From: a virus
Lineage: Duplodnaviria > Caudoviricetes
IMG/VR virus record: IMGVR_UViG_3300030060_001517
Span: 1 to 56,203 of that record
Strand: one strand, 5' to 3'
Length of the DNA stretch: 56,203 nt
Part shown: in pieces, positions 5,856 through 44,066 of the stretch
Numbering within the stretch: the stretch's first letter is position 1
How the letters are laid out: each line of letters starts with the position of its first letter
The notes under the pieces: generated by a model
What the model was told of the DNA's origin: nothing
The model's database searches: none
Seen by the model: only the letters and a program-made list of their open reading frames with translations
Position numbers and translations under genes: made by a program

Positions 5856-5893
5856 TCGTTCGTTCTATTAAGAAATAGACCGAACGAACGATT
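5853..5893. promoter_or_regulatory. Inverted repeat AATCGTTCGTTC...CGAACGAACGATT after the portal gene
   Basis: Local hairpin; 5853-5870 is the exact reverse complement of 588-605. Confidence 0.55.
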
Positions 5894-5920
5894 GATTTAC
5901 GATGGAATTTGAGTTAAACA

Positions 5921-6151
5921 ATGGAGGAAAAAATGGTAAAACCAACAACTAAGAAAAAAGGTAGACCACCTAAAAAAGAACCTAAAAGAGCTAGAAATTC
6001 TAAAGGTCATTACATCGCTGATGATCCAGGAACTTCTCATAACGAAGCATATGGAGAAAAACCATGGTCGTTAGCTAATATTAAAAGAAATTGGAAAATG
6101 GTTCTAATAGGAACTATAATTCTACTGGCTGTAATAATAGGTAATATGTAA
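5921..6151 (+). CDS. Small basic protein with C-terminal transmembrane helix
   Basis: KKKGRPPKK basic N-terminus and hydrophobic MVLIGTIILLAVIIG; GGAGG RBS suggests the real start is 5933. Confidence 0.7.
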   Translation: MEEKMVKPTTKKKGRPPKKEPKRARNSKGHYIADDPGTSHNEAYGEKPWSLANIKRNWKMVLIGTIILLAVIIGNM

Positions 6152-6155
6152 TCAT

Positions 6156-6842
6156 ATGTCATATTTACAAAGTAATATACCGTATTTTAAATGTTGGGTA
6201 CGCAAAGAGTATACCTATAATCATGAGAAATTTCATGGAGAATTTTTACATGCCATGGCGGTAGCAGTTACAACCATACCTAATAGATGTTTAAGTTTTC
6301 AAGTTATCTTTACAGGAGCGGAAACTTACGACACAGAAGAAGAAAATATTCATGGGGGAGCAATGTGGGCAAGAATGCCCATAACTGCTTTAGTGGGGGA
6401 TACACCACTTGATGAATGGCCAAAACCCATGGCTACACATGATGCTCAACCTTGGGATTGCTCTTCCCGAACTCACAGTGTTTATGTGTTGGACAGATGT
6501 TCTCCTTGTCCTTGGCTAGCAAAAATAGATGGAGAACTTTATCCCGCTAAATATTATTTTACGGTAGACTATACGGATTCAGAAATCGCAGATGACCCTG
6601 CTCAACATAAACAGAGTCATGTTTTAGAACTTCTGGATGCTGGAGAATACACTGGTAATATGGTAGCATTACCCAATAACCGAGTAAGAGTGACTCATCC
6701 TGCTTGGTTTAGTTTAGGCGAAGGAGCACCTGAGTTTAGACCTTCACAACATGTGCATTACAGTAAATCAGATCTGGATTACACATTAGATGTGAATCGT
6801 GTTTTTGACAACTTATATAATGGAGAAGAAAATGAAAAGTAA
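6156..6842 (+). CDS. Conserved phage hypothetical protein
   Basis: 228 aa with genome-typical codon use; HGGAMWARMPI, QPWDC and LPNNRVRVTHPAW motifs; function unknown. Confidence 0.8.
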   Translation: MSYLQSNIPYFKCWVRKEYTYNHEKFHGEFLHAMAVAVTTIPNRCLSFQVIFTGAETYDTEEENIHGGAMWARMPITALVGDTPLDEWPKPMATHDAQPWDCSSRTHSVYVLDRCSPCPWLAKIDGELYPAKYYFTVDYTDSEIADDPAQHKQSHVLELLDAGEYTGNMVALPNNRVRVTHPAWFSLGEGAPEFRPSQHVHYSKSDLDYTLDVNRVFDNLYNGEENEK

Positions 6843-6985
6843 AGGTTACGCCAAAGGTGGTAAATCGAAAGGTTATGCTAAAGGCGGAAAAATGAATACT
6901 AAAGGTTATGCCAAAGGAGGTATGAAAACTAAAGGATATTCTAAAGGTGGAAAAATGAAAACCAAAGGATATGCAGCAGGAGGTT
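6832..6985 (+). repeat. Coding tandem repeat of about 30 bp (AAAGGTTATGCTAAAGG-like), five copies
   Basis: Degenerate at third codon positions; similar units recur near 12990-13045. Confidence 0.8.
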
Positions 6986-11850: not shown

Positions 11851-11982
11851 ATGGCAAAAACTAAAGCTAAAACTAAAGCTAAAACTGAAGTAGAAGCAGA
11901 AGAACCTAAAACTAAAGTTAAAAAAGTTATAGATAAATATGCTAGAGCAGGTTTAGTAAGAGCTGTTAAAAAGGAGAAATAG
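11851..11982 (+). CDS. Small Lys-rich protein (43 aa) with AKTK repeats
   Basis: Not in the ORF track; AGGAG RBS; 12-bp tandem repeat AAAACTAAAGCT. Confidence 0.65.
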   Translation: MAKTKAKTKAKTEVEAEEPKTKVKKVIDKYARAGLVRAVKKEK

Positions 11983-11984
11983 TT

Positions 11985-12416
11985 ATGGCAGATGCAGTAG
12001 CAACTCAAGTTATCATGGATGGCGAAAGATTATTCATTGGTAAATATACTAATCTCTCTGACGGTACTGGCGAAAGTAAAGTTACAAAAATTGATGTATC
12101 AGGGCTAGCAAGAAGTGATGACAACTTTCCTTGTAATGGTATCAAAATTAATAAAATTTGGTGTCAAACTTCAGGAATGGCTGTAGATCTTTATTGGGTA
12201 GGAGATCCTACTCCAGCAAATGATGCTTTAATAGTAACTTTACCAGAAGATCAACTTTATGATGTACCATATGATACTTTTGGAGGACTAACTTATAATG
12301 CGACAGGAACAGCAAATGCTGCTGGAGATGTAGCTATAAGTACCAGAGGAGCAGCAAATGGAGATGGGTATACTTTAATAATTGAAGGTATAAAAACTTA
12401 CGGAGCAATAGCATAA
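11985..12416 (+). CDS. Putative virion structural protein
   Basis: AAGGAG RBS; MADAVATQ..DGER...TNLSDGTGES..KIDVS motif; in the structural module. Confidence 0.75.
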   Translation: MADAVATQVIMDGERLFIGKYTNLSDGTGESKVTKIDVSGLARSDDNFPCNGIKINKIWCQTSGMAVDLYWVGDPTPANDALIVTLPEDQLYDVPYDTFGGLTYNATGTANAAGDVAISTRGAANGDGYTLIIEGIKTYGAIA

Positions 12417-13270
12417 TGACAATAAAATATGTAAAAGATTTTGAATTTCCAAGCGATGCAGGATATACAAAATCATCAGCACCTCGTAAAATGAACAGAG
12501 GTGGTAGAACCAAAGCTCTTAAAAATATAAGAGACGAAGAAGCACGAGTGATTGGTGTACAAGACGACGCAGCAGATGAATTAAGAAGAGTAAAAGCTAG
12601 AAGATCTAATGATGCTCAAGAAAGAAGAGATAAAAAGCAACAACTAGCGAGAGTAGGTTCTCGTAAAAGAAATGCTACAGATGAACTAGGAAGACTTCGT
12701 GATGAAGCTGAGTACGAAATCAAAAGAGGTGCTATGGGTGCTAAAAAAGGTGGTGGTAAAAAAGACTGGATTAAAGGTGCAGTTAAAAAACCAGGAGCAC
12801 TTAGAGAGTATATGGATGTTAAAGAAGGACAAAACATTCCTAAGAGTAAAATTAAAAGAGTTGCTGATGGTAAATCAGCTACTCCTGGTGGACCAAAACC
12901 ATCAGGTAAAACACAAAAAAGAGCACAACTTGCAGAAACTTTTGCAGGTATGAAAAAAGCAACAGGAGGATCAGCTACTATGAAAAAATCAAAAGGTTAC
13001 GCTAAAGGCGGTATGAAAAAAGCAAAAGGTTATGCTAAAGGTGGTCGTCAAGGTTATAATGATAAACTTGATGAATCATTAGCAATGACAGACGGCAAAG
13101 AGTCTACCAAGAAACAATCTTTTAAAGATAGAAGAGATGAAAGCGCAGGCATGGAGAAATCTCTGGGTCGCAAAAAGTATGCATCAGTAGACACTATGGA
13201 TAAAGGCGATAGAGATGATGCTTTAGCTGGTTTCAAAAATATGGGAACTATGAAAAATTCATGGTCTTAA
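12416..13270 (+). CDS. Very basic protein, probable internal head / DNA-binding protein
   Basis: Lys/Arg-rich; WIKGAVKKPGALR motif; several xxGG motifs including two KGYAKGG. Confidence 0.75.
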   Translation: MTIKYVKDFEFPSDAGYTKSSAPRKMNRGGRTKALKNIRDEEARVIGVQDDAADELRRVKARRSNDAQERRDKKQQLARVGSRKRNATDELGRLRDEAEYEIKRGAMGAKKGGGKKDWIKGAVKKPGALREYMDVKEGQNIPKSKIKRVADGKSATPGGPKPSGKTQKRAQLAETFAGMKKATGGSATMKKSKGYAKGGMKKAKGYAKGGRQGYNDKLDESLAMTDGKESTKKQSFKDRRDESAGMEKSLGRKKYASVDTMDKGDRDDALAGFKNMGTMKNSWS

Positions 13271-13341
13271 AATAAATAATTAATTTTAAGGGGTCTGCTG
13301 TATCAGTCTGACCATTAGCAGTATAAAATGGATAAAATGAT

Positions 13342-14352
13342 ATGGCGTATTCTAATAATATAAGTATTAAAACTTTTAATGCTTTAAAAGTTGTGGATCA
13401 TGCTTTTCGTAGATGTAAGTTACCTGCTCAAGCAATAACTGCTGAAATGCAAGATTATGCTTTAGACACTTTGGCTTTCTTTTTAGATGAATTAGCTAAT
13501 ATTAAAACACCTAGCTGGTGCGTACAAAAACAAATACTTCCTCTTTATGAAAATAATCAAATTGTAACTTTACCTGCTGGAACAGTAGATGTATTAAATC
13601 TTAACCTTAACATCTTACAAGAATTAAGCGGTACAGTAACTTCTACTGCCACATTATATCAAGTTAATTTTACTTCAGCTACTGTAGTTAATGAAGTAGG
13701 AATAAAATGGTCTAATACCGCTATACCTGTTACTATTCAAACTAGCTCTGATAATGCTACTTGGACTACTGTAGCTACTTATGATGGTAAAAATATAGCT
13801 ACTAATAGTACAGCAGTCGCAGGTGATATAACTTGGATTGAAATAACAGGAGCATTAGCTAAGCAATACTTTAAAATTATTCCTACTGATGGTGTTTCTA
13901 CAATATCTTATACTTCTATAACTTTAGGTAATATGCCTCAAGCTATACCTATGGGTATATTAAGTAGAGATAATTATGTTAACCAAAGTAATTTAGTGTT
14001 TAGTGGAAGACCAACTAGCTTTTATTATCAAAGAAATGTTCCTCAACCTGTTGTTAACCTTTGGCCATGTCCTGATGCTGCCGCAGAAAAATATCAATTA
14101 GTATTATGGAGACATAGACAAATAATGGATACAGATAATTTACAACAAGAAATAGAAATACCTAATAGATGGTTAGAAGCTATTATAAATGGTTTAGCTC
14201 TTAGAGTATGTGCAGAAACACCAACTGCGCCAGGAGAATTAATTCCTCAATTAGAATTAAGAGCTAATCAAAGTATTCAAAGAGCATGGGATGGTGATAA
14301 TGACGGATCGCCTATAGAAATTAATCCAGGAATAGGAGTCTACACAGCATGA
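13342..14352 (+). CDS. Putative head-tail adaptor protein
   Basis: AFRRC N-terminus, GRPTSFYYQR...LWP.PD and IPNRWLEAI..GLA motifs; position after the head genes. Confidence 0.6.
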   Translation: MAYSNNISIKTFNALKVVDHAFRRCKLPAQAITAEMQDYALDTLAFFLDELANIKTPSWCVQKQILPLYENNQIVTLPAGTVDVLNLNLNILQELSGTVTSTATLYQVNFTSATVVNEVGIKWSNTAIPVTIQTSSDNATWTTVATYDGKNIATNSTAVAGDITWIEITGALAKQYFKIIPTDGVSTISYTSITLGNMPQAIPMGILSRDNYVNQSNLVFSGRPTSFYYQRNVPQPVVNLWPCPDAAAEKYQLVLWRHRQIMDTDNLQQEIEIPNRWLEAIINGLALRVCAETPTAPGELIPQLELRANQSIQRAWDGDNDGSPIEINPGIGVYTA

Positions 14353-18495: not shown

Positions 18496-19173
18496 ATGAG
18501 ACACTGGATTAAATATAAAAATGGTAGATTTGGAGGAGTATATCAAGGTGATTCTATTGAATATGGTTTTGAAGATGATAAAATAACTATAGATGAAAAC
18601 ACTTCTGATCAAGATTTATTTAGTTTAGGTATATTAAGATTAAATAAATGGAAAGCAGAATTTCCAAATAGACCTTATAAAATACAACATGGTCCTAAAT
18701 ATGAATTTGTTAATGATGGTTCAGCTGAAGTTAATGAAGTTTTTGACATAAGATATGAAACTTTTGAAGAAATAAGAAATATAAAAATAGACACATGGTA
18801 TATGAATAAAGACGGTATTCATAAACAAGGAGTATATTATAATGGTAGACATTTTGACTGTCGATTTAGAAATATGTCTCATTTATCTATTTTAGCTTCT
18901 ATGATACCCTTAGGTAAATACCCTGAAAATTTTGAATATTTTGACTCAAAAGGAGAAAGATTTTTATTTCCTGAAGAAGATTGTATAGGGTTATTAGAAG
19001 CATTTACTAAAATGATTGTAGATTTAGAAACATCTACATATAAAGTTTTTAATGAAATTATGGCAATAAATGATATAGATGAATTAATAGCCTATGCTCC
19101 TAAAATAGAATTTGAGATGTATAATAGTGATGGAAATTTAATTGGAGAAGGAGCACCAGACGATGTACTTTGA
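18496..19173 (+). CDS. Hypothetical protein, possibly a fibre assembly/chaperone
   Basis: Fills the gap between the Gly-rich gene and the methyltransferase; exact start uncertain (18481 or 18496). Confidence 0.65.
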   Translation: MRHWIKYKNGRFGGVYQGDSIEYGFEDDKITIDENTSDQDLFSLGILRLNKWKAEFPNRPYKIQHGPKYEFVNDGSAEVNEVFDIRYETFEEIRNIKIDTWYMNKDGIHKQGVYYNGRHFDCRFRNMSHLSILASMIPLGKYPENFEYFDSKGERFLFPEEDCIGLLEAFTKMIVDLETSTYKVFNEIMAINDIDELIAYAPKIEFEMYNSDGNLIGEGAPDDVL

Positions 19174-19708
19174 TAGTAAACCTTTATTTGTTAATTTACC
19201 TATAACCGAAGCTATGGTAAGTGCAGAAAACATATTAAATGAAAAAGCTGAATCTTTTTCAGTATTTTCTTCTGAGTTAAATGGTAAAACAGTATTTGAT
19301 GTAGGATGCTGCGATGGAAGATTTTCTGCATGGTGTTTAGATCAAGGAGCTACACATGTTCATGGTTTAGATGTTAATAGTAATTATATAGCTGGTGCTG
19401 AAAATATTATGCCTAATTATTTTACAGCAGACAAATATACTTTTGAGGTAGGTGATATAAATACTTATACTCCTACTGCAACTTATGATGTAGTTATTTT
19501 ATTTAGTATATTATATTTTGGAGATGTTGATACTCAAATAGAAAAAGCATGTTCTATGGCAGATACAATATTAATAGCTACAGAATGGAGCGATGCTTGT
19601 CCTGAAGACGAAGTTACTGCTAAATTTACTTCTTTAAATTATACTTTAGAAAATATAGTAACAACTCCTGCAGAATTAACATTATTAATAGCGAGAAAAG
19701 GAACTTAA
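19163..19708 (+). CDS. Class I SAM-dependent methyltransferase
   Basis: GKTVFDVGCCDG motif I, VHGLDV motif II, YDVVILFSILY; AAGGAG RBS before ATG 19163. Confidence 0.85.
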   Translation: MYFDSKPLFVNLPITEAMVSAENILNEKAESFSVFSSELNGKTVFDVGCCDGRFSAWCLDQGATHVHGLDVNSNYIAGAENIMPNYFTADKYTFEVGDINTYTPTATYDVVILFSILYFGDVDTQIEKACSMADTILIATEWSDACPEDEVTAKFTSLNYTLENIVTTPAELTLLIARKGT

Positions 19709-19709
19709 T

Positions 19710-20504
19710 ATGGAACAAGTTTTACTCGCAGGATTACCAAGATCAGGATCTACCGTATTATGCGGTTTATTATCTCAAAACCCTGAAATAAATGTTACAG
19801 AAGCATCAACATTATTACCTCTTTTAATGAATGTTAGAGAATGGTGGTCAAATGCGCCTAAAAATAGAGTTACAGAAAAACAAGAAAAACTTACACCAAT
19901 CTTAAAATCTATTTTTGAAACATATAATGATGGAAATCACACTGTAAGTATAGATAAAGATAGAAATTGGCCATTTTACTTAGATTTATTAGACACTTTA
20001 ACTGATAAACCTACTAAAATAATCTGCACAGTAAGACCTCCATTAGAATGTGCTGCTTCTTTTGGTAGATTATATGAAAAAGAGCCAGAAACTTACACTC
20101 AAATGGAAGAAATAACTAGAACAATAGGATTTACTACATTAGATAGAGCTAAATCAATGTTAAGTCCAGAAGGATCAATAGGAAAAGCATATTCTGCTCT
20201 TTTTGAAGCATCTGTAGTTCAAAATAGACATGAAAATATGTTATTTTTAGATTATCATAAATTATGCGCTAATCCTCAAGAGCAATTAGCCAGAATTTAT
20301 AAATATTTAGGTATAAATTTATTTAAAAATCATAATTTTGATAAAATAACTAATGCTCAAGAACAAAATGACTTAAATTATAGATCTTTTAGTAAAACTC
20401 ATCAAATTGAACCTAAATTAAGAGAAGGTTATAGAGATTTAGGTAGATTAAACATGTTTAAAAATGAATTTAATTGCGAGGAGTTCTGGTCGTCATGGAT
20501 ATAA
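19710..20504 (+). CDS. Sulfotransferase
   Basis: AGLPRSGST 5'-PAPS loop, DKDR, KIICTVRP...AASF 3'-PB motif, Y..LC.NP...L..IY.YLG. Confidence 0.88.
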   Translation: MEQVLLAGLPRSGSTVLCGLLSQNPEINVTEASTLLPLLMNVREWWSNAPKNRVTEKQEKLTPILKSIFETYNDGNHTVSIDKDRNWPFYLDLLDTLTDKPTKIICTVRPPLECAASFGRLYEKEPETYTQMEEITRTIGFTTLDRAKSMLSPEGSIGKAYSALFEASVVQNRHENMLFLDYHKLCANPQEQLARIYKYLGINLFKNHNFDKITNAQEQNDLNYRSFSKTHQIEPKLREGYRDLGRLNMFKNEFNCEEFWSSWI

Positions 20505-38366: not shown

Positions 38367-38834
38367 ATGTTAAATTTTGAAAATATGAAGATGAAAGAAT
38401 TGGTTGATTATTATAATAGTTACGAAGGTAATAAACCTATTAAAAAGTTTCGTGATAAATCTACTGCTATAGCAAGATGTAAAAATTTATTACAAGCAGT
38501 TATAGAAGTAGAAGATGCTGGGTATCCTGCTGTAAAGAAAGACCTCACTGGTCAAGCATTAAGAAATAGAAATATGAGTGCGTCTTTACAGTTAGATAGA
38601 ACTATTATGGTTATGTGTCCTTATGTTGAAGAAGAAGGTGATGGAGGTTTTCTTAAAGAACCAGAACTTTCTGAATTCAATAATGTTCATCAAATGTGGC
38701 AGATACATCCTGAGTGGGTTACTGGTGCTCAAGTAGATAGATTAACTCGTATTCTTTACAGTAATGCTAAGCAAGGTAAAAGAGTAGAAGTTACTATCAA
38801 TGATAGAACTTTTATGTTAAAGAATGTGAGATAA
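38367..38834 (+). CDS. Hypothetical protein at the head of the modification operon
   Basis: AAGGAGG RBS; ELVDYYN...IKKFRDK.TA motif; TAATG overlap with the next gene. Confidence 0.78.
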   Translation: MLNFENMKMKELVDYYNSYEGNKPIKKFRDKSTAIARCKNLLQAVIEVEDAGYPAVKKDLTGQALRNRNMSASLQLDRTIMVMCPYVEEEGDGGFLKEPELSEFNNVHQMWQIHPEWVTGAQVDRLTRILYSNAKQGKRVEVTINDRTFMLKNVR

Positions 38835-39787
38835 TGAAATCTGTATTTGAAACATATTCCCTCAATAGAGAAGATATAAAATGGGAAAACCATTTATCTT
38901 CTCTAACCCCATGGGAGTTAAAGTCAGGAGTCTGGTTTAAAAGAGACGACTATTTTGCTCCCTTGGGGTACAGTGGTCCTAACGGATCAAAAATGAGACA
39001 ACTTATTTGGTATATAAATAGATTTAGAGAAGGTAAAAATCATATTGTGACTGGAGCATCTATTCAGTCACCTCAATTAAGTATGAGTGCTATAGTAGGT
39101 GCTCATTATGGTCTTAAAAATAGACAAGTAGTTTACAGCAAACCTCACACAGTTACAACTCATGTTAATCCTAAAATTGCTGCTGGTTTTGGCGCAGTGT
39201 TTGAATATGCTTCTGGTCCTTATAATCCTATCATTCAAAAAAGAGTAGCAGATTTAACTCAAGAAAATTCATTAGTAGTAGAATATGGTATAACAGTTCC
39301 TCATACTCGTTATCCTGCAGAAGATGTAAGAAAATTTCATGAGGTAGGTGCATATCAAACTTCTAATATGCCTGAGCAAGTAGAAAAATTAATAGTACCT
39401 GCTGGATCTTGTAACTCTTTAACAAGTGTATTATTAGGATTGAGCAGAGACTCTAAAAATTTAAAAGAGTTATTTACTATTGGTATAGGTCCTGATAAAA
39501 GAGATTGGGTCAATGAAAGATTAAAAATAATGGGAGTAGATCCTGAGTACTTTAATTTTAAATGGAACCATTATTCTTTACATGACAATAAGTATGCTTC
39601 TTATAGTGACAAATTTAAAGATGAAACATTTGAAGATATTATTTTTCATCCTACTTATGAAGCTAAGATGTGGAGATGGTTAAGAGAAAGAAATCCTTTA
39701 GACTTTGATGATAAAACAGCATTTTGGATAGTAGGTAGTGCTGCTGATACTAAAATAGTAGAACCTTTTTATACGGAGATAGACTGA
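38834..39787 (+). CDS. Fold-type II PLP-dependent enzyme (putative DNA amino-acid-adduct decarboxylase)
   Basis: WFKRDD...NGSKMRQ (PLP lysine), PAGSCNS phosphate loop, HPTYEAK; ACC deaminase/D-cysteine desulfhydrase-like; inside the hypermodification operon. Confidence 0.82.
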   Translation: MKSVFETYSLNREDIKWENHLSSLTPWELKSGVWFKRDDYFAPLGYSGPNGSKMRQLIWYINRFREGKNHIVTGASIQSPQLSMSAIVGAHYGLKNRQVVYSKPHTVTTHVNPKIAAGFGAVFEYASGPYNPIIQKRVADLTQENSLVVEYGITVPHTRYPAEDVRKFHEVGAYQTSNMPEQVEKLIVPAGSCNSLTSVLLGLSRDSKNLKELFTIGIGPDKRDWVNERLKIMGVDPEYFNFKWNHYSLHDNKYASYSDKFKDETFEDIIFHPTYEAKMWRWLRERNPLDFDDKTAFWIVGSAADTKIVEPFYTEID

Positions 39788-40554
39788 TGGTTATAACAAC
39801 AACCAAGTGGAAGATTTTAAATAAATATGATTTTGAATTACTACCAGGAGAAGCACAAAAGATGCCAGATGGTGATTACAGTTATTATCAATATTTAAAT
39901 AAAAGATGGCAAGAGACAGGTAAAAATGTTTTGTGTCAAGAATTCTTATTAGCTCCTCATAAAAGAAGCGATAATGCTAATGATTTGATTGTAGCTGAAC
40001 CATTTGGAGGATGCGGTGTGTTTTCTATAGCTATTCAACATTTGTTAAAACCTATGCATCATTATATAGGAGAGTTAGATGAAGATTGTGTAAGACAGTT
40101 ATATTTTTGCACTGCTTCTTATCCAGGAGTAACAGTCAGTCAAGAAGATGCTCATGAAAGATTAGGAGTTTTACCTGCAGATATTTACGTATGTGATTTT
40201 CCTTTCTTCACTTTAATAAAACATAGTGAACAAGATATGTGGGTTAAAGAAATGGAAAGAATGATTTCTCATAAACCTGAAGCTATCATTATAACTGATG
40301 GTTCAAGTTGCCGATGGCATTTCACTGCAAAGAATTTAAAGAAGAGAGGATATGATGTTAATCATCATCGAGAAAGTTATGCTAAAGTTTTTGACAAATA
40401 CTTTAAAGAAAAATATAATTATAGAGTAACTGCTGTAGCTTATCATGGTACATGTTTTTATATTAAAATACAACCAGCAGGATCGTATTTAGATAAAATA
40501 GCAATTAAACATATACCTGCAGGAGTAGGTATCAATGGGTTAAGACCGCAATGA
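39787..40554 (+). CDS. Class I SAM-dependent (amino-)methyltransferase-like protein
   Basis: VAEPFGGCG motif I, IGELD motif II, QEDA, and DIYVCDFPF as a DPPY-like motif IV. Confidence 0.7.
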   Translation: MVITTTKWKILNKYDFELLPGEAQKMPDGDYSYYQYLNKRWQETGKNVLCQEFLLAPHKRSDNANDLIVAEPFGGCGVFSIAIQHLLKPMHHYIGELDEDCVRQLYFCTASYPGVTVSQEDAHERLGVLPADIYVCDFPFFTLIKHSEQDMWVKEMERMISHKPEAIIITDGSSCRWHFTAKNLKKRGYDVNHHRESYAKVFDKYFKEKYNYRVTAVAYHGTCFYIKIQPAGSYLDKIAIKHIPAGVGINGLRPQ

Positions 40555-41552
40555 AAAATTATAAATTAACAGAAAATAGAAGAGAGTATTTTGATGCTCT
40601 TTACAAATTAAATTTAGAATATGGTATTATGCCTGGGTTGGTTTATTTATATATGCCTTCATTAGCTAAGCATTACTCTTGGAATAATGAAGACAAATTA
40701 TGGTTTTCTTTTTTAAATGGTATGACGCAAAATCCAATAACATCAATTCAATTATTAGAACAGTTACCTAGTGTTCCTCCTGCTGGAGCTACTCTTTCTA
40801 AATTTAATAACTGGTTTAATGATAATTGGGATATTTTAAAATATGATACTGATAGAAGATATCAAAAGAAAGATACTGTTGATGCTATTAAATCTTATGC
40901 TCAGATTTTATCTAATTATTCTTCTCAAGAAGAAATGCTTACTAATAGTTATAAAGAACTTTGGAACTTAGTAAGTAATAATTATAATTCTTTTGGTAGA
41001 TTATCTTCATTTAGTTATTTAGAATATGTTTATTTAAATGGTTTCGGTGCTGACTGTGATAATTTATTATTTGAAGATAAATCTGGAAGCAAATCACATC
41101 GTAATGGTATGATGATTTTACATGGAGCAGATAATTTTGTTTGGGATAAAAGAGCCAGGAATGAGTTTACTGGAGATTATCCTGATTTCAAAAAAGTATG
41201 TGATTGGTTAAATGAAGTTGCTACTCAACATTTAACTGAGTTTAAAAATAAACATCCTGATATTTCACATGTAGGTAATTTTACTTTTGAAAGTAATTTA
41301 TGTACATTTAAAAATCATTTCTTTGGCAGAAGATATCCTGGTGTTTATGCAGACATGGCATGGCAAAGAATTGAGTGGGCAGAAGAAAGAGGGATTGATA
41401 CTTCTATTTTTAAAAATATAAGAGAAGAACATTTACCTGATTGGTTAAGAATTGAATGTTCTAATTTAAAAGTAGATATCAATAAATTTGGTTCATTGTT
41501 TCAAGAACAAGGAACACCATTTAGAGGAGATAAATTTTTATGTCAAATATAA
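40551..41552 (+). CDS. aGPT-Pplase family protein (amino acid:DNA transferase-like, probably clade 3)
   Basis: RREYF, LWFSFLNG, DTDRRYQK, HhH-like FGRLSSFSYLE, GSKSHRNG, ESNLCTFK...RRYPGVY. Confidence 0.75.
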   Translation: MKNYKLTENRREYFDALYKLNLEYGIMPGLVYLYMPSLAKHYSWNNEDKLWFSFLNGMTQNPITSIQLLEQLPSVPPAGATLSKFNNWFNDNWDILKYDTDRRYQKKDTVDAIKSYAQILSNYSSQEEMLTNSYKELWNLVSNNYNSFGRLSSFSYLEYVYLNGFGADCDNLLFEDKSGSKSHRNGMMILHGADNFVWDKRARNEFTGDYPDFKKVCDWLNEVATQHLTEFKNKHPDISHVGNFTFESNLCTFKNHFFGRRYPGVYADMAWQRIEWAEERGIDTSIFKNIREEHLPDWLRIECSNLKVDINKFGSLFQEQGTPFRGDKFLCQI

Positions 41553-42127
41553 TACTTAGAATATGTGGAACTTTCGGCTCTGGTAAAACTACCGCAGTTA
41601 GAAAATTTTTAGAAGATTATCCTAATGAAACTTTATATGTAGAAAATAAAATAGCTGGTTATAAATTAGATTTAAAATCTGAAGATATAACTAAACCTGT
41701 TTTTGTTATAGGTAAGTACGACAATGTTTGTGGCGGAACAGACTCTATGGCTACTCAACAATTAATTGCTGATAGAATAATGCAAGCACATCCTCATGGA
41801 CATGTTATGTATGAAGGTGCTTTAGTTTCTGCTTCCGGATTAGGAGGTAAAGTCACTCAAGCAACTGAAGAAACAGGATGTACTGTTTATGCATTTTTAG
41901 ATACTCCAGAAGATTTATGTATTGAAAGAGTTAAACAAAGAAGATTAAATGCTGGAAATGAAAAAGAATTTAATCCTAAAAATTTAATAGATAAATTTAG
42001 GAGTGTTGCTAATTGTAAAAATAACCTTTTAGCAGCAAAATGCGCAGTAGCTGATTTAGATTATACTAACACGCATCCTACTTTATTAAACTTAATTAGA
42101 AATTTTGATCAAGGGAGATTTGAATGA
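41540..42127 (+). CDS. P-loop nucleotide kinase of base-modification clusters
   Basis: ICGTFGSGKTT, IGKY...CGGTD, YEG, FLDTP...C..RV..RR. Confidence 0.85.
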   Translation: MSNIILRICGTFGSGKTTAVRKFLEDYPNETLYVENKIAGYKLDLKSEDITKPVFVIGKYDNVCGGTDSMATQQLIADRIMQAHPHGHVMYEGALVSASGLGGKVTQATEETGCTVYAFLDTPEDLCIERVKQRRLNAGNEKEFNPKNLIDKFRSVANCKNNLLAAKCAVADLDYTNTHPTLLNLIRNFDQGRFE

Positions 42128-43047
42128 TACAAGATAGACCATATATTCCGCCTACTGCTAATAATGTTACTTCATTAAAGGCTTTGTTATATTTTGTTTG
42201 GGAAAGAGAAGCTATCCGTATAGCAAAAGAAAATAGGTATAATGGAGATCTAACTGATGATCCTATTTTGAAAAAATATAAATTCACTAACATCAGAAGA
42301 AAAGATGATCGTGTTAGTAAATGGATTATAGATAATATTATTCTTAATGTTGGTATAAATGAAAATAGTTTATGGTTCACTTTATTAATTGCTCGTTTAA
42401 TTAATTGGCCACCAACACTTCAGTATCTTCTTAATTGTGAAGAAAATATATTATTAAAAGACCCTAATAATTTTGATCCTAAAAGTTTTTCTGTAGCTAT
42501 AGAAAAATTTAGAGAAACAAACTCTAAAGCATATTCTGGTGCTTATATGGTTTACCCTACTAAAAAAGATGTAGGATCTGTTAAATCTTTATCTTTAGGT
42601 AATCATATTATTAAACCTGTTTTAGATATAGCAGAAGAAGTAGATTACATTTTATATACAGAAAATAGTATTGAAAAATTTGTTAATATTTTATCTAATT
42701 GTTTTGGTATAAGCACTTTCATTGCTGGGCAAGTAGCAGCAGATCTAACTTATTGTGAAGCACCATTATGCGATGCGTCAGATTTATATACTTATGCTCC
42801 AATAGGACCAGGAAGTTCTAAAGGATTAAATTATCTTTTTAATAGAAAACCTTACGCAACTTGGAAACAAGAAGATTTTAATGATCAGTTACAGATGATA
42901 AATGAACAAATTAAAGATGAGTTAGAAATAACTGATTTAACTTTACACGATGTTCAAAATGTAATGTGTGAATATAGTAAATATACCAGAACTTTATTAG
43001 GAGAAGGTAAACCTAAAACTATGTATAAACCAGAGGAGAGCTTTTAA
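42124..43047 (+). CDS. 5-hmdU DNA kinase (aGPT-Pplase1 / HMUDK helical domain)
   Basis: ERE.IR...DDPILKKYKFTNIRRKDDRVSKW, RLINWP, AYM, F.AGQ..ADL.Y, GPGS.KGL, QN.MCEYSKY. Confidence 0.88.
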   Translation: MIQDRPYIPPTANNVTSLKALLYFVWEREAIRIAKENRYNGDLTDDPILKKYKFTNIRRKDDRVSKWIIDNIILNVGINENSLWFTLLIARLINWPPTLQYLLNCEENILLKDPNNFDPKSFSVAIEKFRETNSKAYSGAYMVYPTKKDVGSVKSLSLGNHIIKPVLDIAEEVDYILYTENSIEKFVNILSNCFGISTFIAGQVAADLTYCEAPLCDASDLYTYAPIGPGSSKGLNYLFNRKPYATWKQEDFNDQLQMINEQIKDELEITDLTLHDVQNVMCEYSKYTRTLLGEGKPKTMYKPEESF

Positions 43048-44066
43048 TGGAACTTAGAGTAGAAAATGTAAATGAAGCATTTCAAGAAATATTATGGAAA
43101 TTTAAAGTACTTAATCTTGAAACAGAAGAAACTAGAAATGGACCAGCTTTAGTTTATCCAGAAATGGTAACAACTATTTATAGGTTTCCTGATGAAAGAG
43201 TTTTATTTCACCCTAAAAGAGATGCTAATCCTATATTTCATTTAATGGAAGCTATATGGATGATTGCAGGTAGAAATGATGTTGAGTTTGTAAATCAATT
43301 TAATAGTAATATGAAAAACTTTAGCGATGATGGAAAAGTGTTCAATGCTGCTTATGGTCATAGATGGAGAAAACATTTTGGTACCGATCAATTATTAGAT
43401 GTTATAAATTTATTAAAACAAGATATAAGCACTCGCCAAGCTGTTATTCAGATGTGGGATGCTGAAGATTTAGTAAAAGACACTTGTGATAAAGCATGTA
43501 ATACTCAGTTAATATTTGACACCAGGAACAATAAATTAAATATGACAGTGTTTAATCGTTCTAACGATGTTTGGTGGGGAGCATATGGTGCTAATGCTGT
43601 TCATTTTAGTTTCTTGCAAGAAGTGATAGCTAGAGCTATTGATTATCCTTTAGGAGAATACAGGCAAGTTTCTAATAATTTTCATTTTTATACTGAGTTA
43701 TATGATGCTATGAGTTTATTAGATAACCCTCCTAATGAACATTCACACAATCCTTACCATAATGGAGAAGTTTCATCTTTACCTATAATGGATAATAATG
43801 ATTATGCAGGGTTTATTTTAGATTGTGAACAGTTTTGCAAAGATCCTTTTGGTTTAGCTAATTTAGAAACTTATAAATTTAATCATAGTTTCTTTATGTC
43901 AGTAGCTCGTCCTATGGCTCTTATTTCACATATAAGAAAAAATAAAGATAATGACAGTAAATATTATGATGGTATGCTTCAAGCTAAAAGTATAAAAGCA
44001 CCTGATTGGCAAAGAGCATGTGTAGAATGGATAACCAGAAGAAATATGTTAGATGTTCCATTTTAA
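43047..44066 (+). CDS. Thymidylate synthase-family enzyme, probable dUMP hydroxymethylase
   Basis: TRNG, RDANPIFH..E..W, AYGHRW, TRQAV, catalytic DKACN, RSNDVWWGAYGANAVHF (Asn = dUMP specificity), NFHFY. Confidence 0.88.
   Translation: MELRVENVNEAFQEILWKFKVLNLETEETRNGPALVYPEMVTTIYRFPDERVLFHPKRDANPIFHLMEAIWMIAGRNDVEFVNQFNSNMKNFSDDGKVFNAAYGHRWRKHFGTDQLLDVINLLKQDISTRQAVIQMWDAEDLVKDTCDKACNTQLIFDTRNNKLNMTVFNRSNDVWWGAYGANAVHFSFLQEVIARAIDYPLGEYRQVSNNFHFYTELYDAMSLLDNPPNEHSHNPYHNGEVSSLPIMDNNDYAGFILDCEQFCKDPFGLANLETYKFNHSFFMSVARPMALISHIRKNKDNDSKYYDGMLQAKSIKAPDWQRACVEWITRRNMLDVPF

What the first reader, a model, noticed from the sequence alone, without database searches (positions are those of the whole stretch)
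39787..40554. SAM methyltransferase between the PLP decarboxylase and the amino acid:DNA transferase
Seen: Rossmann motif I EPFGGCG, acidic motif II GELD, and a degenerate DPPY-like DFPF; translationally coupled to both neighbours. Established: DPPY-type motif IV marks amine-methylating enzymes, and PLP decarboxylation of a Ser/Gly-thymine adduct leaves a primary amine. Inference: the enzyme N-methylates that amine, giving a mono-, di- or trimethylaminoalkyl (possibly choline-like, permanently cationic) uracil side chain. I do not know this step from characterised pathways.
Basis: partly seen in the sequence, partly recalled or inferred. Interest (0 to 1): 0.85.

Follow-up and report, generated by a model that had tools for sequence, protein, structure and literature searches.

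The report
Methyltransferase inside phage thymine-hypermodification cluster
An uncultured marine phage carries, inside the gene set that chemically decorates the thymines of its own DNA, an extra enzyme of a previously undescribed methyltransferase family, which probably adds methyl groups to the decoration and so makes a DNA base nobody has yet measured.

Summary
It hits no Pfam, PHROG or NCBIfam family. A confident AlphaFold model (pLDDT 93.3) is an unmistakable class-I SAM methyltransferase fold, and the SAM-binding positions are conserved across 162 relatives. The family (445 representatives at 50% identity) was found only in phage and metagenome DNA. In 33 of 38 assessable loci it lies within 1.3 kb of an amino-acid:DNA transferase (ADDT) and/or a PLP enzyme. 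This includes unrelated phage backbones, for example an overlapping Tet_JBP-kinase-ADDT-PLP-MT operon, and one MT-ADDT fusion protein. The neighbouring PLP enzyme is a full-length homolog of the experimentally shown O-seryl-thymidine decarboxylase ViI gp226, with the catalytic lysine aligned. So a dedicated methylation step in thymidine hypermodification is well supported, and I found none described in the papers I could search. The DPPY-like motif is not conserved across the family. Also, 11 of 38 loci, including one complete genome, have the MT but no PLP enzyme. N-methylation of the side-chain amine remains the most likely chemistry (about 0.55) but is unproven. The scan noted the same idea before on other DNA (e1-6337523, e1-6087003).

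The parts
39787..40554 (+). Methyltransferase gene (255 aa). It belongs to an uncharacterised class-I SAM methyltransferase family found only in phage and metagenome DNA.
   Evidence: ORF. No Pfam, PHROG or NCBIfam family. AF2 model pLDDT 93.3. Foldseek: 797 PDB chains at E<=0.001, and all 50 listed are SAM-dependent methyltransferase-fold proteins. Family size.
39997..40017 (+). Motif I, EPFGGCG (residues 71-77), the glycine-rich SAM loop after strand beta-1.
   Evidence: for coordinates. In 162 relatives G75 and G77 are invariant, E71 is 152/162, F73 is 141/162 and G74 is 142/162. Beta-1 is residues 68-71 in the model.
40069..40080 (+). Motif II, GELD (residues 95-98). E96 is the acidic residue at the end of strand beta-2, which in class-I methyltransferases binds the SAM ribose (that role is recalled knowledge).
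   Evidence: Position 96 is E in 90 and D in 72 of 162, so always acidic. Beta-2 is residues 91-96.
40144..40152 (+). Motif III, EDA (residues 120-122), after strand beta-3.
   Evidence: D121 is D in 136 and N in 19 of 162; A122 is A in 108 and S in 33. Beta-3 is residues 115-119.
40192..40212 (+). Motif IV region, CDFPFFT (residues 136-142), after strand beta-4. The family consensus is D-F-[P/N]-x-F-T, not DPPY.
   Evidence: D137 is D in 155 and E in 7 of 162. F138 is 109/162. P139 is P in 81 and N in 43. Position 140 is F in 31, S in 26 and T in 19. F141 is 99/162. T142 is T in 124 and S in 32.
40294..40302 (+). TDG (residues 170-172) at the end of strand beta-5. D171 is a second near-invariant acidic residue and probably lies in the substrate pocket (inference).
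   Evidence: D171 is 159/162. Beta-5 is residues 166-171.
38834..39787 (+). Fold-type II PLP enzyme, a homolog of the ViI gp226 O-seryl-thymidine decarboxylase. K53 is the predicted aldimine lysine.
   Evidence: phrog_3650 E 4.7e-81. 35% identity and E 5e-69 to ViI YP_004327553.1, with K53 aligned to K92. The gp226 activity and K92 come from passages of PMC8989533. Weak ACC-deaminase/D-cysteine-desulfhydrase hits.
40551..41552 (+). Amino acid:DNA transferase (ADDT / aGPT-Pplase-type).
   Evidence: PF18724 E 2e-16, 60.9 bits against a cut-off of 26.2. phrog_3271 E 1.2e-60.
41540..42127 (+). P-loop kinase, the probable catalytic half of a split 5-hmdU DNA kinase.
   Evidence: AAA_33 E 6.5e-6. 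HMUDK_HMUD1 E 1.3e-5 at 25.2 bits, just under its cut-off of 27.
42124..43047 (+). 5-hmdU DNA kinase helical domain protein.
   Evidence: PF18723 E 3e-41.
43047..44066 (+). Thymidylate-synthase-family enzyme, probably a dUMP hydroxymethylase that supplies 5-hmdU.
   Evidence: PF00303 E 2.4e-20. phrog_5131 E 1.1e-101. The role is inferred from the pathway described in PMC8989533.
44145..44642 (+). HD-domain YfbR-like 5'-deoxynucleotidase, probably nucleotide-pool editing.
   Evidence: PF12917 E 4.6e-14.

Best explanation
The gene encodes a SAM-dependent class-I methyltransferase that is a dedicated tailoring enzyme of the phage's thymidine-hypermodification pathway. The proposed sequence of steps is as follows. 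The TS-like enzyme makes 5-hmdUMP, which is incorporated into DNA. The split kinase phosphorylates 5-hmdU in DNA. The ADDT replaces the phosphate with an amino acid attached through its side chain, as ViI does with serine. The gp226-like PLP enzyme removes the carboxylate and leaves a primary amine. The methyltransferase then transfers one or more methyl groups from SAM to that side-chain nitrogen, giving an N-methylated aminoalkyl(oxy)methyl-uracil in DNA. What rests on results: the fold, the conserved SAM-site residues, the genomic linkage, and homology of the PLP enzyme to a proven decarboxylase. What is inferred: the acceptor atom, the order of steps (PLP before MT), action on DNA rather than on a free donor, the identity of the amino acid, and the number of methyl groups. 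My confidence that it is a hypermodification-pathway methyltransferase is about 0.85. My confidence that the acceptor is the side-chain amine is about 0.55, and that is the figure given as the confidence of this explanation.
For: Fold: AF2 pLDDT 93.3 and pTM 0.91, with the canonical strand order and a beta-6/beta-7 hairpin. 797 PDB chains match at E<=0.001, and all 50 listed are SAM-dependent methyltransferase-fold proteins. The best query coverage is Trm1 (TMq 0.57 and 0.53), an N2,N2-dimethylguanosine enzyme. SAM-site residues are conserved in 162 relatives: G75 and G77 are invariant, position 96 is always E or D, D121 is 136 D plus 19 N, and D137 is 155 D plus 7 E. Linkage: of 57 distinct MT loci, 38 have at least 1.2 kb on both sides. 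Of those, 20 have PLP and ADDT, 11 have ADDT only and 2 have PLP only within 1.3 kb. The 2 'PLP only' loci have Pfam-detectable ADDTs that my HMM missed. Of the 5 with neither, the records of L009 and L025 carry ADDT and PLP elsewhere, and L055 and L059 have PLP 4.4-4.6 kb upstream. Independent backbones: L038 is an overlapping Tet_JBP - kinase - ADDT - PLP - MT operon with the MT last; L037 is a 102-kb phage with Pol III alpha. P0146 is a full MT domain (E 4.8e-55 against a family HMM that did not include it) fused to an ADDT (PF18724 E 6.5e-12). The family was not found in cellular genomes with the two patterns used, nor in 50,697 phage records by tblastn. Chemistry: the PLP neighbour is 35% identical to ViI gp226 (E 5e-69), with K53 aligned to K92. 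gp226 decarboxylates O-SerT to 5-NeOmdU in vitro (PMC8989533 passages). The window genome is rated 100% complete and has no radical-SAM match, so the route is ViI-type and not M6-type. In that product the primary amine is the only plausible methyl acceptor on the side chain. PLP chemistry needs a free primary amine (same paper), which puts methylation after decarboxylation. A primary or secondary amine is also the one group that would be present both with and without the decarboxylase.
Against: No experiment and no ligand-bound model supports any acceptor atom. The DPPY-like motif is not conserved: P139 is Pro in 81/162 and position 140 is Phe in 31/162. The structural neighbours are a generic mixture of N-, O- and C-methyltransferases at TMq 0.36-0.57 and 11-19% identity, so the fold does not decide the chemistry. 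11 of 38 assessable loci lack the PLP enzyme. That includes G003, which has terminal repeats and is rated 100% complete, and which has no match to the window's PLP protein, to PF00291 or to PF02675. So the enzyme does not depend on decarboxylation, and a carboxylate would be available there. Many of the loci are related phages with the same gene order (DNA polymerase 48-96% identical), so the counts are not independent events. The MT-ADDT fusion is a single protein on a single contig; its 16 relatives lack the MT domain.
Confidence: 0.55

Rival explanations
1. It has the same pathway role but a different acceptor or timing. It could O-methylate the carboxylate of the appended amino acid (a methyl ester), methylate another atom of the adduct or of the uracil ring, or methylate the free donor molecule before the ADDT transfers it.
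For: The MT occurs without any PLP decarboxylase in 11 of 38 assessable loci and in a complete genome, where the adduct would keep its carboxylate. The MT is more constantly associated with the ADDT than with the PLP enzyme, and is once fused to it. That would also suit an enzyme that prepares the ADDT's donor. Top Foldseek hits include O-methyltransferases such as ChlM, DnrK and MmcR.
Against: In the window the gp226-like decarboxylase is present and translationally coupled. An esterified carboxylate could not be decarboxylated, and an N-methylated free donor could not form the PLP aldimine (the PLP requirement is quoted). No conserved basic residue distinguishes the PLP-less group's MTs at the 24 positions that differ between the groups. 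In L038 the gene order puts the MT after the PLP enzyme.
Confidence: 0.2
2. It is an ordinary orphan DNA base methyltransferase (m6A, m4C or m5C) that merely travels with the phage's DNA-metabolism module and protects against restriction independently of the thymidine pathway.
For: Phages often carry orphan DNA methyltransferases (recalled knowledge). The window subfamily has a D-x-P-aromatic motif after beta-4. One of 29 members gives a very weak D12-class hit at E 0.13. Some viral DNA methyltransferases appear among the BFVD hits at TMq of about 0.4. Much of the synteny could reflect shared ancestry.
Against: The window genome has no match to the D12 (PF02086) or N6_N4 (PF01555) families at E<=0.1, although the controls ring. 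No DNA methyltransferase is among the 50 PDB hits listed. The family was seen only beside, or in the same record as, ADDT or PLP genes, across rearranged orders and unrelated backbones and in one fusion. It was absent from 50,697 phage records by tblastn. The motif-IV register is not conserved.
Confidence: 0.08
3. It uses SAM for something other than methyl transfer, for example 3-amino-3-carboxypropyl or aminopropyl transfer (TYW2- or spermidine-synthase-like). That would build a further amino-acid-like arm on which the PLP enzyme then acts.
For: TYW2 structures are among the Foldseek hits (3a27 at E 5.6e-7, and 3a25). TRM5-TYW2 gives weak hits in 3 of 29 members, best E 0.0075. A spermidine synthase appears at BFVD rank 22.
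Against: These hits are no better than dozens of plain methyltransferases in the same lists, and all are below the Pfam thresholds. The ADDT already supplies an amino acid. The MT also occurs without any PLP enzyme.
Confidence: 0.05
4. It methylates RNA, protein or a small molecule unrelated to DNA modification, for example host rRNA or tRNA, and the linkage is incidental.
For: The best sequence-level hints are to rRNA adenine dimethylases: RrnaAD in 4 of 29 members with best E 2.7e-4, and KsgA as the top PDB chain at E 0.99. The nearest named Atlas cluster is an 'rRNA adenine N-6-methyltransferase family' at 0.95, but with only 167 shared features. The best TM-scores are to tRNA and rRNA enzymes.
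Against: All these similarities are below threshold. Incidental linkage does not explain adjacency kept through gene-order changes, overlapping start and stop codons, a pathway-ordered operon on another backbone, and a fusion to an ADDT.
Confidence: 0.05

Closest known systems
Salmonella phage ViI 5-NeOmdU pathway (5-HMUDK gp67/gp243, serine:DNA transferase gp247, PLP decarboxylase gp226; Lee et al., PMC5889632 and PMC8989533)
   Same: It shares the enzyme logic: a dUMP-hydroxymethylase-type TS homolog, a 5-hmdU DNA kinase, an ADDT and a fold-type II PLP enzyme. The window's PLP enzyme is 35% identical over nearly its full length to gp226, with the aldimine lysine aligned. The window has no radical-SAM isomerase, as in ViI (PMC8989533 passage).
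   Different: ViI gave no match to the MT family profile (that output itself warns an empty answer shows little). The ADDTs are only 26-28% identical to those of ViI-like phages. The genes are a tight overlapping cluster here, whereas in ViI the gene numbers are scattered (gp67 to gp247; Table 1). The end product here is predicted to carry extra methyl groups.
Tailoring enzymes of thymidine hypermodification listed so far: radical-SAM isomerase (M6 gp53), PLP decarboxylases, flavin-dependent lyase (PaMx11 gp47) and acetyltransferase (PaMx11 gp48)
   Same: It is an accessory enzyme encoded next to the ADDT and kinase, and is presumed to act on the DNA-borne adduct.
   Different: A SAM methyltransferase is not in that list in the 2021 paper (abstract and passages) or in the introduction of the August 2026 paper PMC13458397, whose main text has no occurrence of 'methyltransferase'.
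MnmC2 domain / MnmM of tRNA wobble-uridine modification (nm5U to mnm5U). The function is recalled, not tested here.
   Same: It is the same kind of chemistry as proposed here: a class-I SAM methyltransferase N-methylating a primary amine on a side chain at C5 of uracil. PMC8989533 already draws the DNA/tRNA parallel for the preceding step, PaMx11 gp47 with MnmC1.
   Different: There is no detectable sequence relationship. The 15 Pfam families hit by any of the 29 members at E<=1 are listed by name, and none is one I recognise as MnmC- or MnmM-specific. The substrate here would be DNA, not tRNA.
KsgA/Erm/Dim1 rRNA adenine N6,N6-dimethyltransferases (PF00398) and Trm1 (m2,2G26)
   Same: It shares the class-I fold. 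These give the best, though sub-threshold, sequence hints and the best structural coverage (Trm1 TMq 0.57; Dim1 3fyc TMq 0.44). They are enzymes that put two methyl groups on one amine.
   Different: It is not a member. RrnaAD reaches E 2.7e-4 in only 4 of 29 members, and the KsgA chain reaches E 0.99. Identity to the structures is 11-14%. The N- and C-terminal extensions differ.
Phosphoethanolamine N-methyltransferases (ethanolamine head group to choline head group; recalled, not tested here)
   Same: It is a chemical analogy only: stepwise N-methylation of an O-linked 2-aminoethyl group, which is exactly the side chain of 5-NeOmdU.
   Different: No homology was tested or claimed, and the substrate is a small molecule rather than DNA.

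Membership tests
Class-I (Rossmann-like) SAM-dependent methyltransferases | Seven-stranded sheet in the order beta 3-2-1-4-5-7-6 with an antiparallel beta-7, flanked by helices | tested here: met
   The AF2 model (pLDDT 93.3) has strands at 68-71, 91-96, 115-119, 133-136, 166-171, 212-219 and 224-230, alternating with helices. 797 PDB chains match at E<=0.001, and all 50 listed are SAM-dependent methyltransferase-fold proteins. The spatial strand order itself could not be read because no coordinates were available.
Class-I (Rossmann-like) SAM-dependent methyltransferases | Glycine-rich motif I after beta-1, an acidic residue at the end of beta-2, and a D/N after beta-3 | tested here: met
   G75 and G77 are invariant, position 96 is E or D in 162/162, and D121 is D in 136 plus N in 19 of 162.
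Class-I (Rossmann-like) SAM-dependent methyltransferases | Binds SAM and transfers methyl | not testable with these tools
   This needs the purified protein. Ligand docking was not possible without model coordinates.
Amino-methyltransferases with the (D/N/S)-P-P-(Y/F/W) motif IV (N6-A and N4-C DNA MTases, PrmC/HemK, RsmC/RsmD). The definition is recalled. | A conserved (D/N/S)PP(Y/F/W) tetrapeptide directly after beta-4 | tested here: not met
   The window has D-F-P-F. Across 162 relatives D137 is kept (155 D, 7 E), but P139 is Pro in only 81 (Asn in 43), and the fourth position is Phe in 31, Ser in 26 and Thr in 19. The conserved pattern is D-F-[P/N]-x-F-T.
Amino-methyltransferases with the (D/N/S)-P-P-(Y/F/W) motif IV | Match to the DNA amino-MTase profiles (PF02086 D12 class, PF01555 N6_N4) | tested here: not met
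   The window genome has no match at E<=0.1 while the control genomes ring. PF02086 is hit at E 0.13 in 1 of 29 members.
rRNA adenine dimethylase family (KsgA/Erm, PF00398) | Score above the Pfam gathering threshold, or a significant match to solved members | tested here: not met
   The window protein has no hit at E<=0.1. 4 of 29 members hit with a best E of 2.7e-4. The KsgA chain 6ifw_A scores E 0.99.
Thymidine-hypermodification gene clusters (5-HMUDK plus ADDT core with tailoring enzymes; PMC8989533) | Encoded together with a 5-hmdU DNA kinase and an amino-acid:DNA transferase | tested here: met
   Window: PF18724 at 2e-16 and PF18723 at 3e-41 immediately downstream. Family: 33 of 38 assessable loci have an ADDT and/or a PLP enzyme within 1.3 kb. 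ADDT is on the same record in 4 of 5 records tested, and the fifth is a 42%-complete fragment.
Thymidine-hypermodification gene clusters (5-HMUDK plus ADDT core with tailoring enzymes; PMC8989533) | The enzyme acts on the DNA-borne adduct and changes the final nucleoside | not testable with these tools
   This requires reconstitution and LC-MS.
MnmC2 / MnmM tRNA nm5U methyltransferases | Sequence membership in their families | tested here: not met
   None of the 15 Pfam families hit at E<=1 by any of the 29 members, and none of the NCBIfam hits, is one I recognise as an MnmC or MnmM model. It is an analogue in proposed chemistry only.

The most novel reading that the evidence does not exclude
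The enzyme methylates the side-chain amine exhaustively. The phage's thymines would then carry a quaternary, permanently cationic trimethylammonium group, a choline-ether of 5-hydroxymethyluracil. That would be a DNA base with a fixed positive charge in the major groove. The tandem pair of MT paralogs in L014 would then be successive methylation steps that have been split between two enzymes.
Probability: 0.12. Interest if true: 0.9.

Novelty: new variant of a known kind. Interest (0 to 1): 0.7.

Why it matters
Thymidine hypermodification is a known phage strategy against restriction and other nucleases. The tailoring chemistries described so far are isomerisation, decarboxylation, oxidative cleavage and acetylation. 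A dedicated SAM methyltransferase would add a fifth chemistry and predicts at least one DNA base that has never been observed, an N-methylated aminoalkyl-uracil. If methylation is exhaustive, the base would carry a fixed positive charge. The family is not small (445 representatives at 50% identity), has no Pfam, PHROG or NCBIfam model, and was found only in uncultured phages, which would explain why it has been missed. It can be tested directly with the published in-vitro system for ViI. It also offers a possible enzymatic route to site-dense methylamino or dimethylamino handles on DNA. The MT-without-decarboxylase clusters imply further, different end products.

Tried and rejected
Sequence-only family assignment failed. 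Pfam, PHROGs and NCBIfam gave nothing for the window protein. A profile search of PDB sequences gave only E of about 1.

A search for longer (fused) relatives of the window protein found none among 419 candidates. The tool itself calls that weak evidence.

Megablast and tblastn against 50,697 phage records found nothing.

A scan of 185,579 species' genome contigs found no relative. It used only two peptide patterns from the window's subfamily, so distant cellular relatives are not excluded.

I looked for a hidden small decarboxylase in the roughly 340-nt MT-ADDT gap of the PLP-less loci. It holds only two short hydrophobic ORFs of about 47 and 36-43 aa. PF00291 and PF02675 gave nothing in G003 or G004. 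Note that PF00291 also misses the window's own PLP enzyme, so the direct protein search is the stronger negative.

I compared MT residues between loci with and without the PLP gene. 24 positions differ consistently, but the PLP-less loci are essentially one clade and none of the changes introduces a basic residue. I draw no conclusion from this.

Isoelectric points are uninformative. The family median is 6.3 and the window MT is 7.6, while the ADDT is 5.95.

I considered applying the donor-specifying pocket residues of Pplase2 (PMC13458397, section 38) to the ADDTs here. I dropped this because YuA- and 15599-type enzymes are too distant (no Pseudomonas or Acinetobacter hits).

The L009 upstream 2OG-Fe(II) oxygenase is unrelated to the L015 and L020 upstream ORFs. 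The latter match phrog_624, 'DNA binding protein'.

A complex prediction of the ADDT (alignment A7) with the MT (alignment A1) gave no verdict: score 0.00 in two runs, and the controls were not run. It counts neither for nor against binding.

Model coordinates are not exposed, so no active-site geometry could be examined.

Literature. Searches found no paper describing a methyltransferase step or an N-methylated thymidine hypermodification. I read passages or sections of PMC8989533, PMC13458397, PMC11472151 and PMC5889632. Iyer et al. 2013 (NAR 41:7635), which first described aGPT-Pplase neighbourhoods, is not held, so I cannot say whether it mentions an associated methylase. Supplementary files were not opened. 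Figure 2 of PMC8989533 and its supplements show metagenomic clusters and could include this gene without naming it.


Full report
OBSERVATION. One search lists an ATG-started ORF at 39787..40554 (+), 255 aa, exactly as reported. The three motifs are present: EPFGGCG at residues 71-77, GELD at 95-98, and DFPF within CDFPFFT at 136-142. The upstream gene's TGA shares a base with the MT start (TGATG, with a GGAG about 9 nt upstream). The MT's TGA overlaps the next gene's ATG by four bases (ATGA). The window is a whole virus record of 56,203 bases, rated 100% complete. It has no close cultured relative. Megablast found nothing, and the DNA polymerase is at most 39% identical to those of Pseudoalteromonas, Vibrio and Rhodobacter phages.

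WHAT THE PROTEIN IS. The window protein has no Pfam, PHROG or NCBIfam match. It nevertheless has 28 relatives at 38-95% identity, none with a precomputed Pfam domain. An exhaustive profile search gives 445 representatives at E<=0.001, 208 at E<=1e-10 and 33 at E<=1e-30. An AlphaFold2 model built on the 29-sequence alignment is confident (pLDDT 93.3, pTM 0.91). It shows the alternating strand-helix pattern of a class-I methyltransferase with a terminal beta-hairpin.

Foldseek finds 797 PDB chains at E<=0.001, and all 50 listed are SAM-dependent methyltransferase-fold proteins. The lowest E-values are for RlmCD, ChlM and Trm1. The best query coverage is Trm1 (TMq 0.57 and 0.53). Identities are only 11-19%. 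In the viral library two uncultured-phage proteins annotated 'AdoMet_MTases domain' are clear family members (TM 0.89 at 38% identity, and 0.75 at 27%). Weak sequence hints point to rRNA adenine dimethylases: RrnaAD in 4 of 29 members with best E 2.7e-4, and KsgA as the top PDB chain at E 0.99. The protein-language-model look-alikes are also generic class-I methyltransferases.

In an alignment of 162 full-length relatives the SAM-site positions hold. G75 and G77 are invariant, position 96 is always E or D, D121 is D in 136 and N in 19, and D137 is D in 155 and E in 7. D171 (159), Y198 (159) and Y212 (143) are also nearly invariant. The fold and SAM use are therefore well supported.

THE MOTIF-IV ARGUMENT. 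In the window's subfamily the sequence is D-F-P-F-F-T. Across the family, however, the proline is Pro in only 81 of 162 (Asn in 43), and the fourth position is Phe in 31, Ser in 26 and Thr in 19. What is conserved is D-F-[P/N]-x-F-T. The D12 and N6_N4 DNA-methyltransferase models do not match anything in this genome, while the controls ring. I therefore do not file the protein with the DPPY amino-methyltransferases, and I give the motif little weight.

I collected loci from IMG/VR and metagenome contigs. I scored them with HMMs built from the loci's own proteins. The PLP and ADDT models were rebuilt without the fusion proteins, because a first version gave cross-hits. 73 loci had an MT hit. 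I dropped the 9 loci that were pieces of records already represented and merged identical MT sequences, which left 57 distinct loci. 38 of these have at least 1.2 kb on both sides of the MT.

Of those 38, 20 have PLP and ADDT within 1.3 kb, 11 have ADDT only, 2 have PLP only, and 5 have neither. The two 'PLP only' loci do have ADDTs that Pfam detects but my HMM missed. Of the five 'neither' loci, the records of L009 and L025 carry an ADDT and a PLP enzyme elsewhere. L055 and L059 have the PLP gene 4.4-4.6 kb upstream. L054 shows nothing in 1.9 kb upstream and 7 kb downstream.

Among the 19 loci set aside for short flanks, 9 still show an adjacent ADDT or PLP gene, 3 show PLP 4.6-4.9 kb away, and 7 show nothing.

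Many loci are related phages with the same gene order, so these are not independent counts. The linkage nevertheless survives rearrangement (MT-PLP-ADDT in L023, ADDT-MT-PLP in L026 and L027) and change of backbone. L038 is an overlapping five-gene operon: Tet_JBP oxygenase, P-loop kinase, ADDT, PLP enzyme and MT, in pathway order with the MT last. L037 is a 102-kb phage with a Pol III alpha gene beside the cluster.

One protein, P0146 (609 aa, on a 111.6-kb contig), is a complete MT domain fused to an ADDT domain. It is a singleton: none of its 16 relatives has the MT domain, and 6 of them carry Tet_JBP with the ADDT. P0045 looks like an MT fused to a P-loop kinase, but it lacks the MT's C-terminal part and may be a gene-calling chimera.

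The subfamily was not found in cellular genomes with the two patterns used. It was not found in 50,697 phage records or in phage ViI (an empty answer there is weak evidence).

THE NEIGHBOURS AND THE PATHWAY. Downstream lie an ADDT (PF18724, 2e-16), a P-loop kinase, the 5-hmdU-kinase helical domain (3e-41), a thymidylate-synthase homolog and an HD nucleotidase. The upstream gene is 35% identical (E 5e-69) over nearly its whole length to ViI YP_004327553.1, which is orf00226 or gp226. Its K53 aligns with gp226 K92. According to passages of PMC8989533, gp226 is a yellow PLP protein that decarboxylates O-seryl-thymidine in DNA to 5-(2-aminoethoxy)methyl-dU, and K92 is its proposed aldimine lysine. 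The M6 homolog did not act on the N-alpha-linked glycine adduct produced by gp51, so a free primary amine is needed. The window genome has no radical-SAM match, so the route is of the ViI type.

MECHANISM. The most economical reading is: hydroxymethyl-dUMP synthesis, incorporation into DNA, phosphorylation, amino-acid transfer through the side chain, decarboxylation, and then SAM-dependent methylation of the resulting primary amine. Three inferences support the amine as the acceptor. First, in a ViI-type product it is the only reasonable nucleophile on the side chain. Second, methylating the nitrogen or the carboxylate earlier would block the PLP step. Third, an amine is the one group common to clusters with and without the decarboxylase. 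Two nearly invariant acidic residues after strands 4 and 5 (D137, D171), together with invariant tyrosines, would suit an ammonium substrate. I could not check their positions in space.

EVIDENCE AGAINST, AND LIMITS. 11 of 38 assessable loci have the MT and ADDT but no PLP enzyme. One of these records, G003, has terminal repeats and is rated 100% complete. It has no match to the window's PLP protein, to PF00291 or to PF02675. The MT-ADDT gap in these loci holds only two tiny hydrophobic ORFs. So the enzyme does not need the decarboxylated product. In those phages it may methylate an amino-acid adduct (on nitrogen or on the carboxylate) or an amine transferred directly.

L014 has two tandem MT paralogs and no PLP gene. 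That is compatible with several methyl transfers or with two acceptor atoms. The structural neighbours mix N-, O- and C-methyltransferases. Nothing here shows SAM binding, activity on DNA or the number of methyl groups.

COMPARISON WITH WHAT IS KNOWN. The cluster is a ViI-type thymidine-hypermodification pathway with one additional enzyme. The tailoring enzymes named in PMC8989533 (abstract) and in the introduction of PMC13458397 (August 2026) are radical-SAM isomerases, PLP decarboxylases, flavin lyases and acetyltransferases. 'Methyltransferase' does not occur in the main text of PMC13458397 or PMC5889632. In PMC8989533 and PMC11472151 the word refers only to other enzymes. Eight full-text searches found no described methylation step. 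Iyer et al. 2013 is not held, and supplements were closed, so an earlier passing mention cannot be excluded.

The nearest functional analogue that I recall is the tRNA enzyme MnmC2/MnmM, which methylates the amine of 5-aminomethyl-uridine. No sequence relationship was seen.

Earlier notes of this scan flagged the same idea on another genome (e1-6337523). They also flagged an M6-type cluster with an extra methyltransferase-fold enzyme (e1-6087003). I treat both as leads only.

VERDICT. It is a new variant of a known kind of system. It is based on a sizeable protein family that has no curated model, and it is directly testable with published assays.

Noticed in passing
L014:775-2321: Two tandem paralogs of the MT (775-1584 and 1581-2321) sit directly upstream of the ADDT in a cluster with no PLP gene. 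A 111-aa ORF just before them (518-853) gives a weak N6_Mtase hit (E 1.4e-4) and looks like a methyltransferase remnant.
   Followed up: partly
L038:181-4468: A compact overlapping operon runs Tet_JBP oxygenase, P-loop nucleotide kinase 3, ADDT, PALP-type PLP enzyme and MT. It has no TS-like gene, so thymine is presumably oxidised in DNA. The next gene (4482-6887, 801 aa) has a faint intein-splicing signal.
   Followed up: partly
L028:277-2436 (record G001); also L053, L059, L062: A 720-aa open frame fuses the gp226-like PLP enzyme to an ADDT. In this phage group the MT, which is 67% identical to the window's, sits 4-8 kb away instead of adjacent.
   Followed up: partly
L009:4533-8004 and 11911-13689: In that same group the MT start is overlapped by a 2OG-Fe(II) oxygenase gene (PF13640, E 1.7e-14). 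An ArdC-like antirestriction/metallopeptidase gene lies upstream, and a CHASE2-guanylate-cyclase gene lies downstream on the other strand.
   Followed up: no
L017, L018, L069, L072-L074, L077: the ~340-nt gap between MT and ADDT: Two conserved tiny ORFs encoding hydrophobic peptides of about 47 and 36-43 aa lie between the MT and the ADDT in the PLP-less clusters. Their function is unknown.
   Followed up: no
P0177-P0192 (relatives of P0146): These are ADDT proteins of 551-680 aa with an extra N-terminal half. 6 of the 16 carry a Tet_JBP domain, which makes them apparent oxygenase-transferase fusions.
   Followed up: no
L037:5704-7996: Two ORFs of 479 and 287 aa with no Pfam match lie between the ADDT and the MT in a 102-kb phage. 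They are possibly further tailoring enzymes. A Pol III alpha gene follows the PLP gene.
   Followed up: no
window 19142-20504: A second, unrelated class-I methyltransferase (Methyltransf_31, E 3.5e-9) lies next to a sulfotransferase (E 1.8e-15) among the tail genes.
   Followed up: no
window 40551-41552: The ADDT matches PF18724 (E 2e-16), and no aGPT-Pplase3 model is listed at E<=0.1. Its best cultured relatives are mycobacteriophage proteins (35% identity), ahead of ViI-like phages (26-28%). Its donor substrate is unknown.
   Followed up: partly
window 38367-38834: A 155-aa ORF (phrog_4730, unknown function) directly precedes the PLP gene, ending at the base where it starts. It is conserved at 43-79% identity in the loci that keep the PLP-MT-ADDT order. 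It may belong to the cluster.
   Followed up: no
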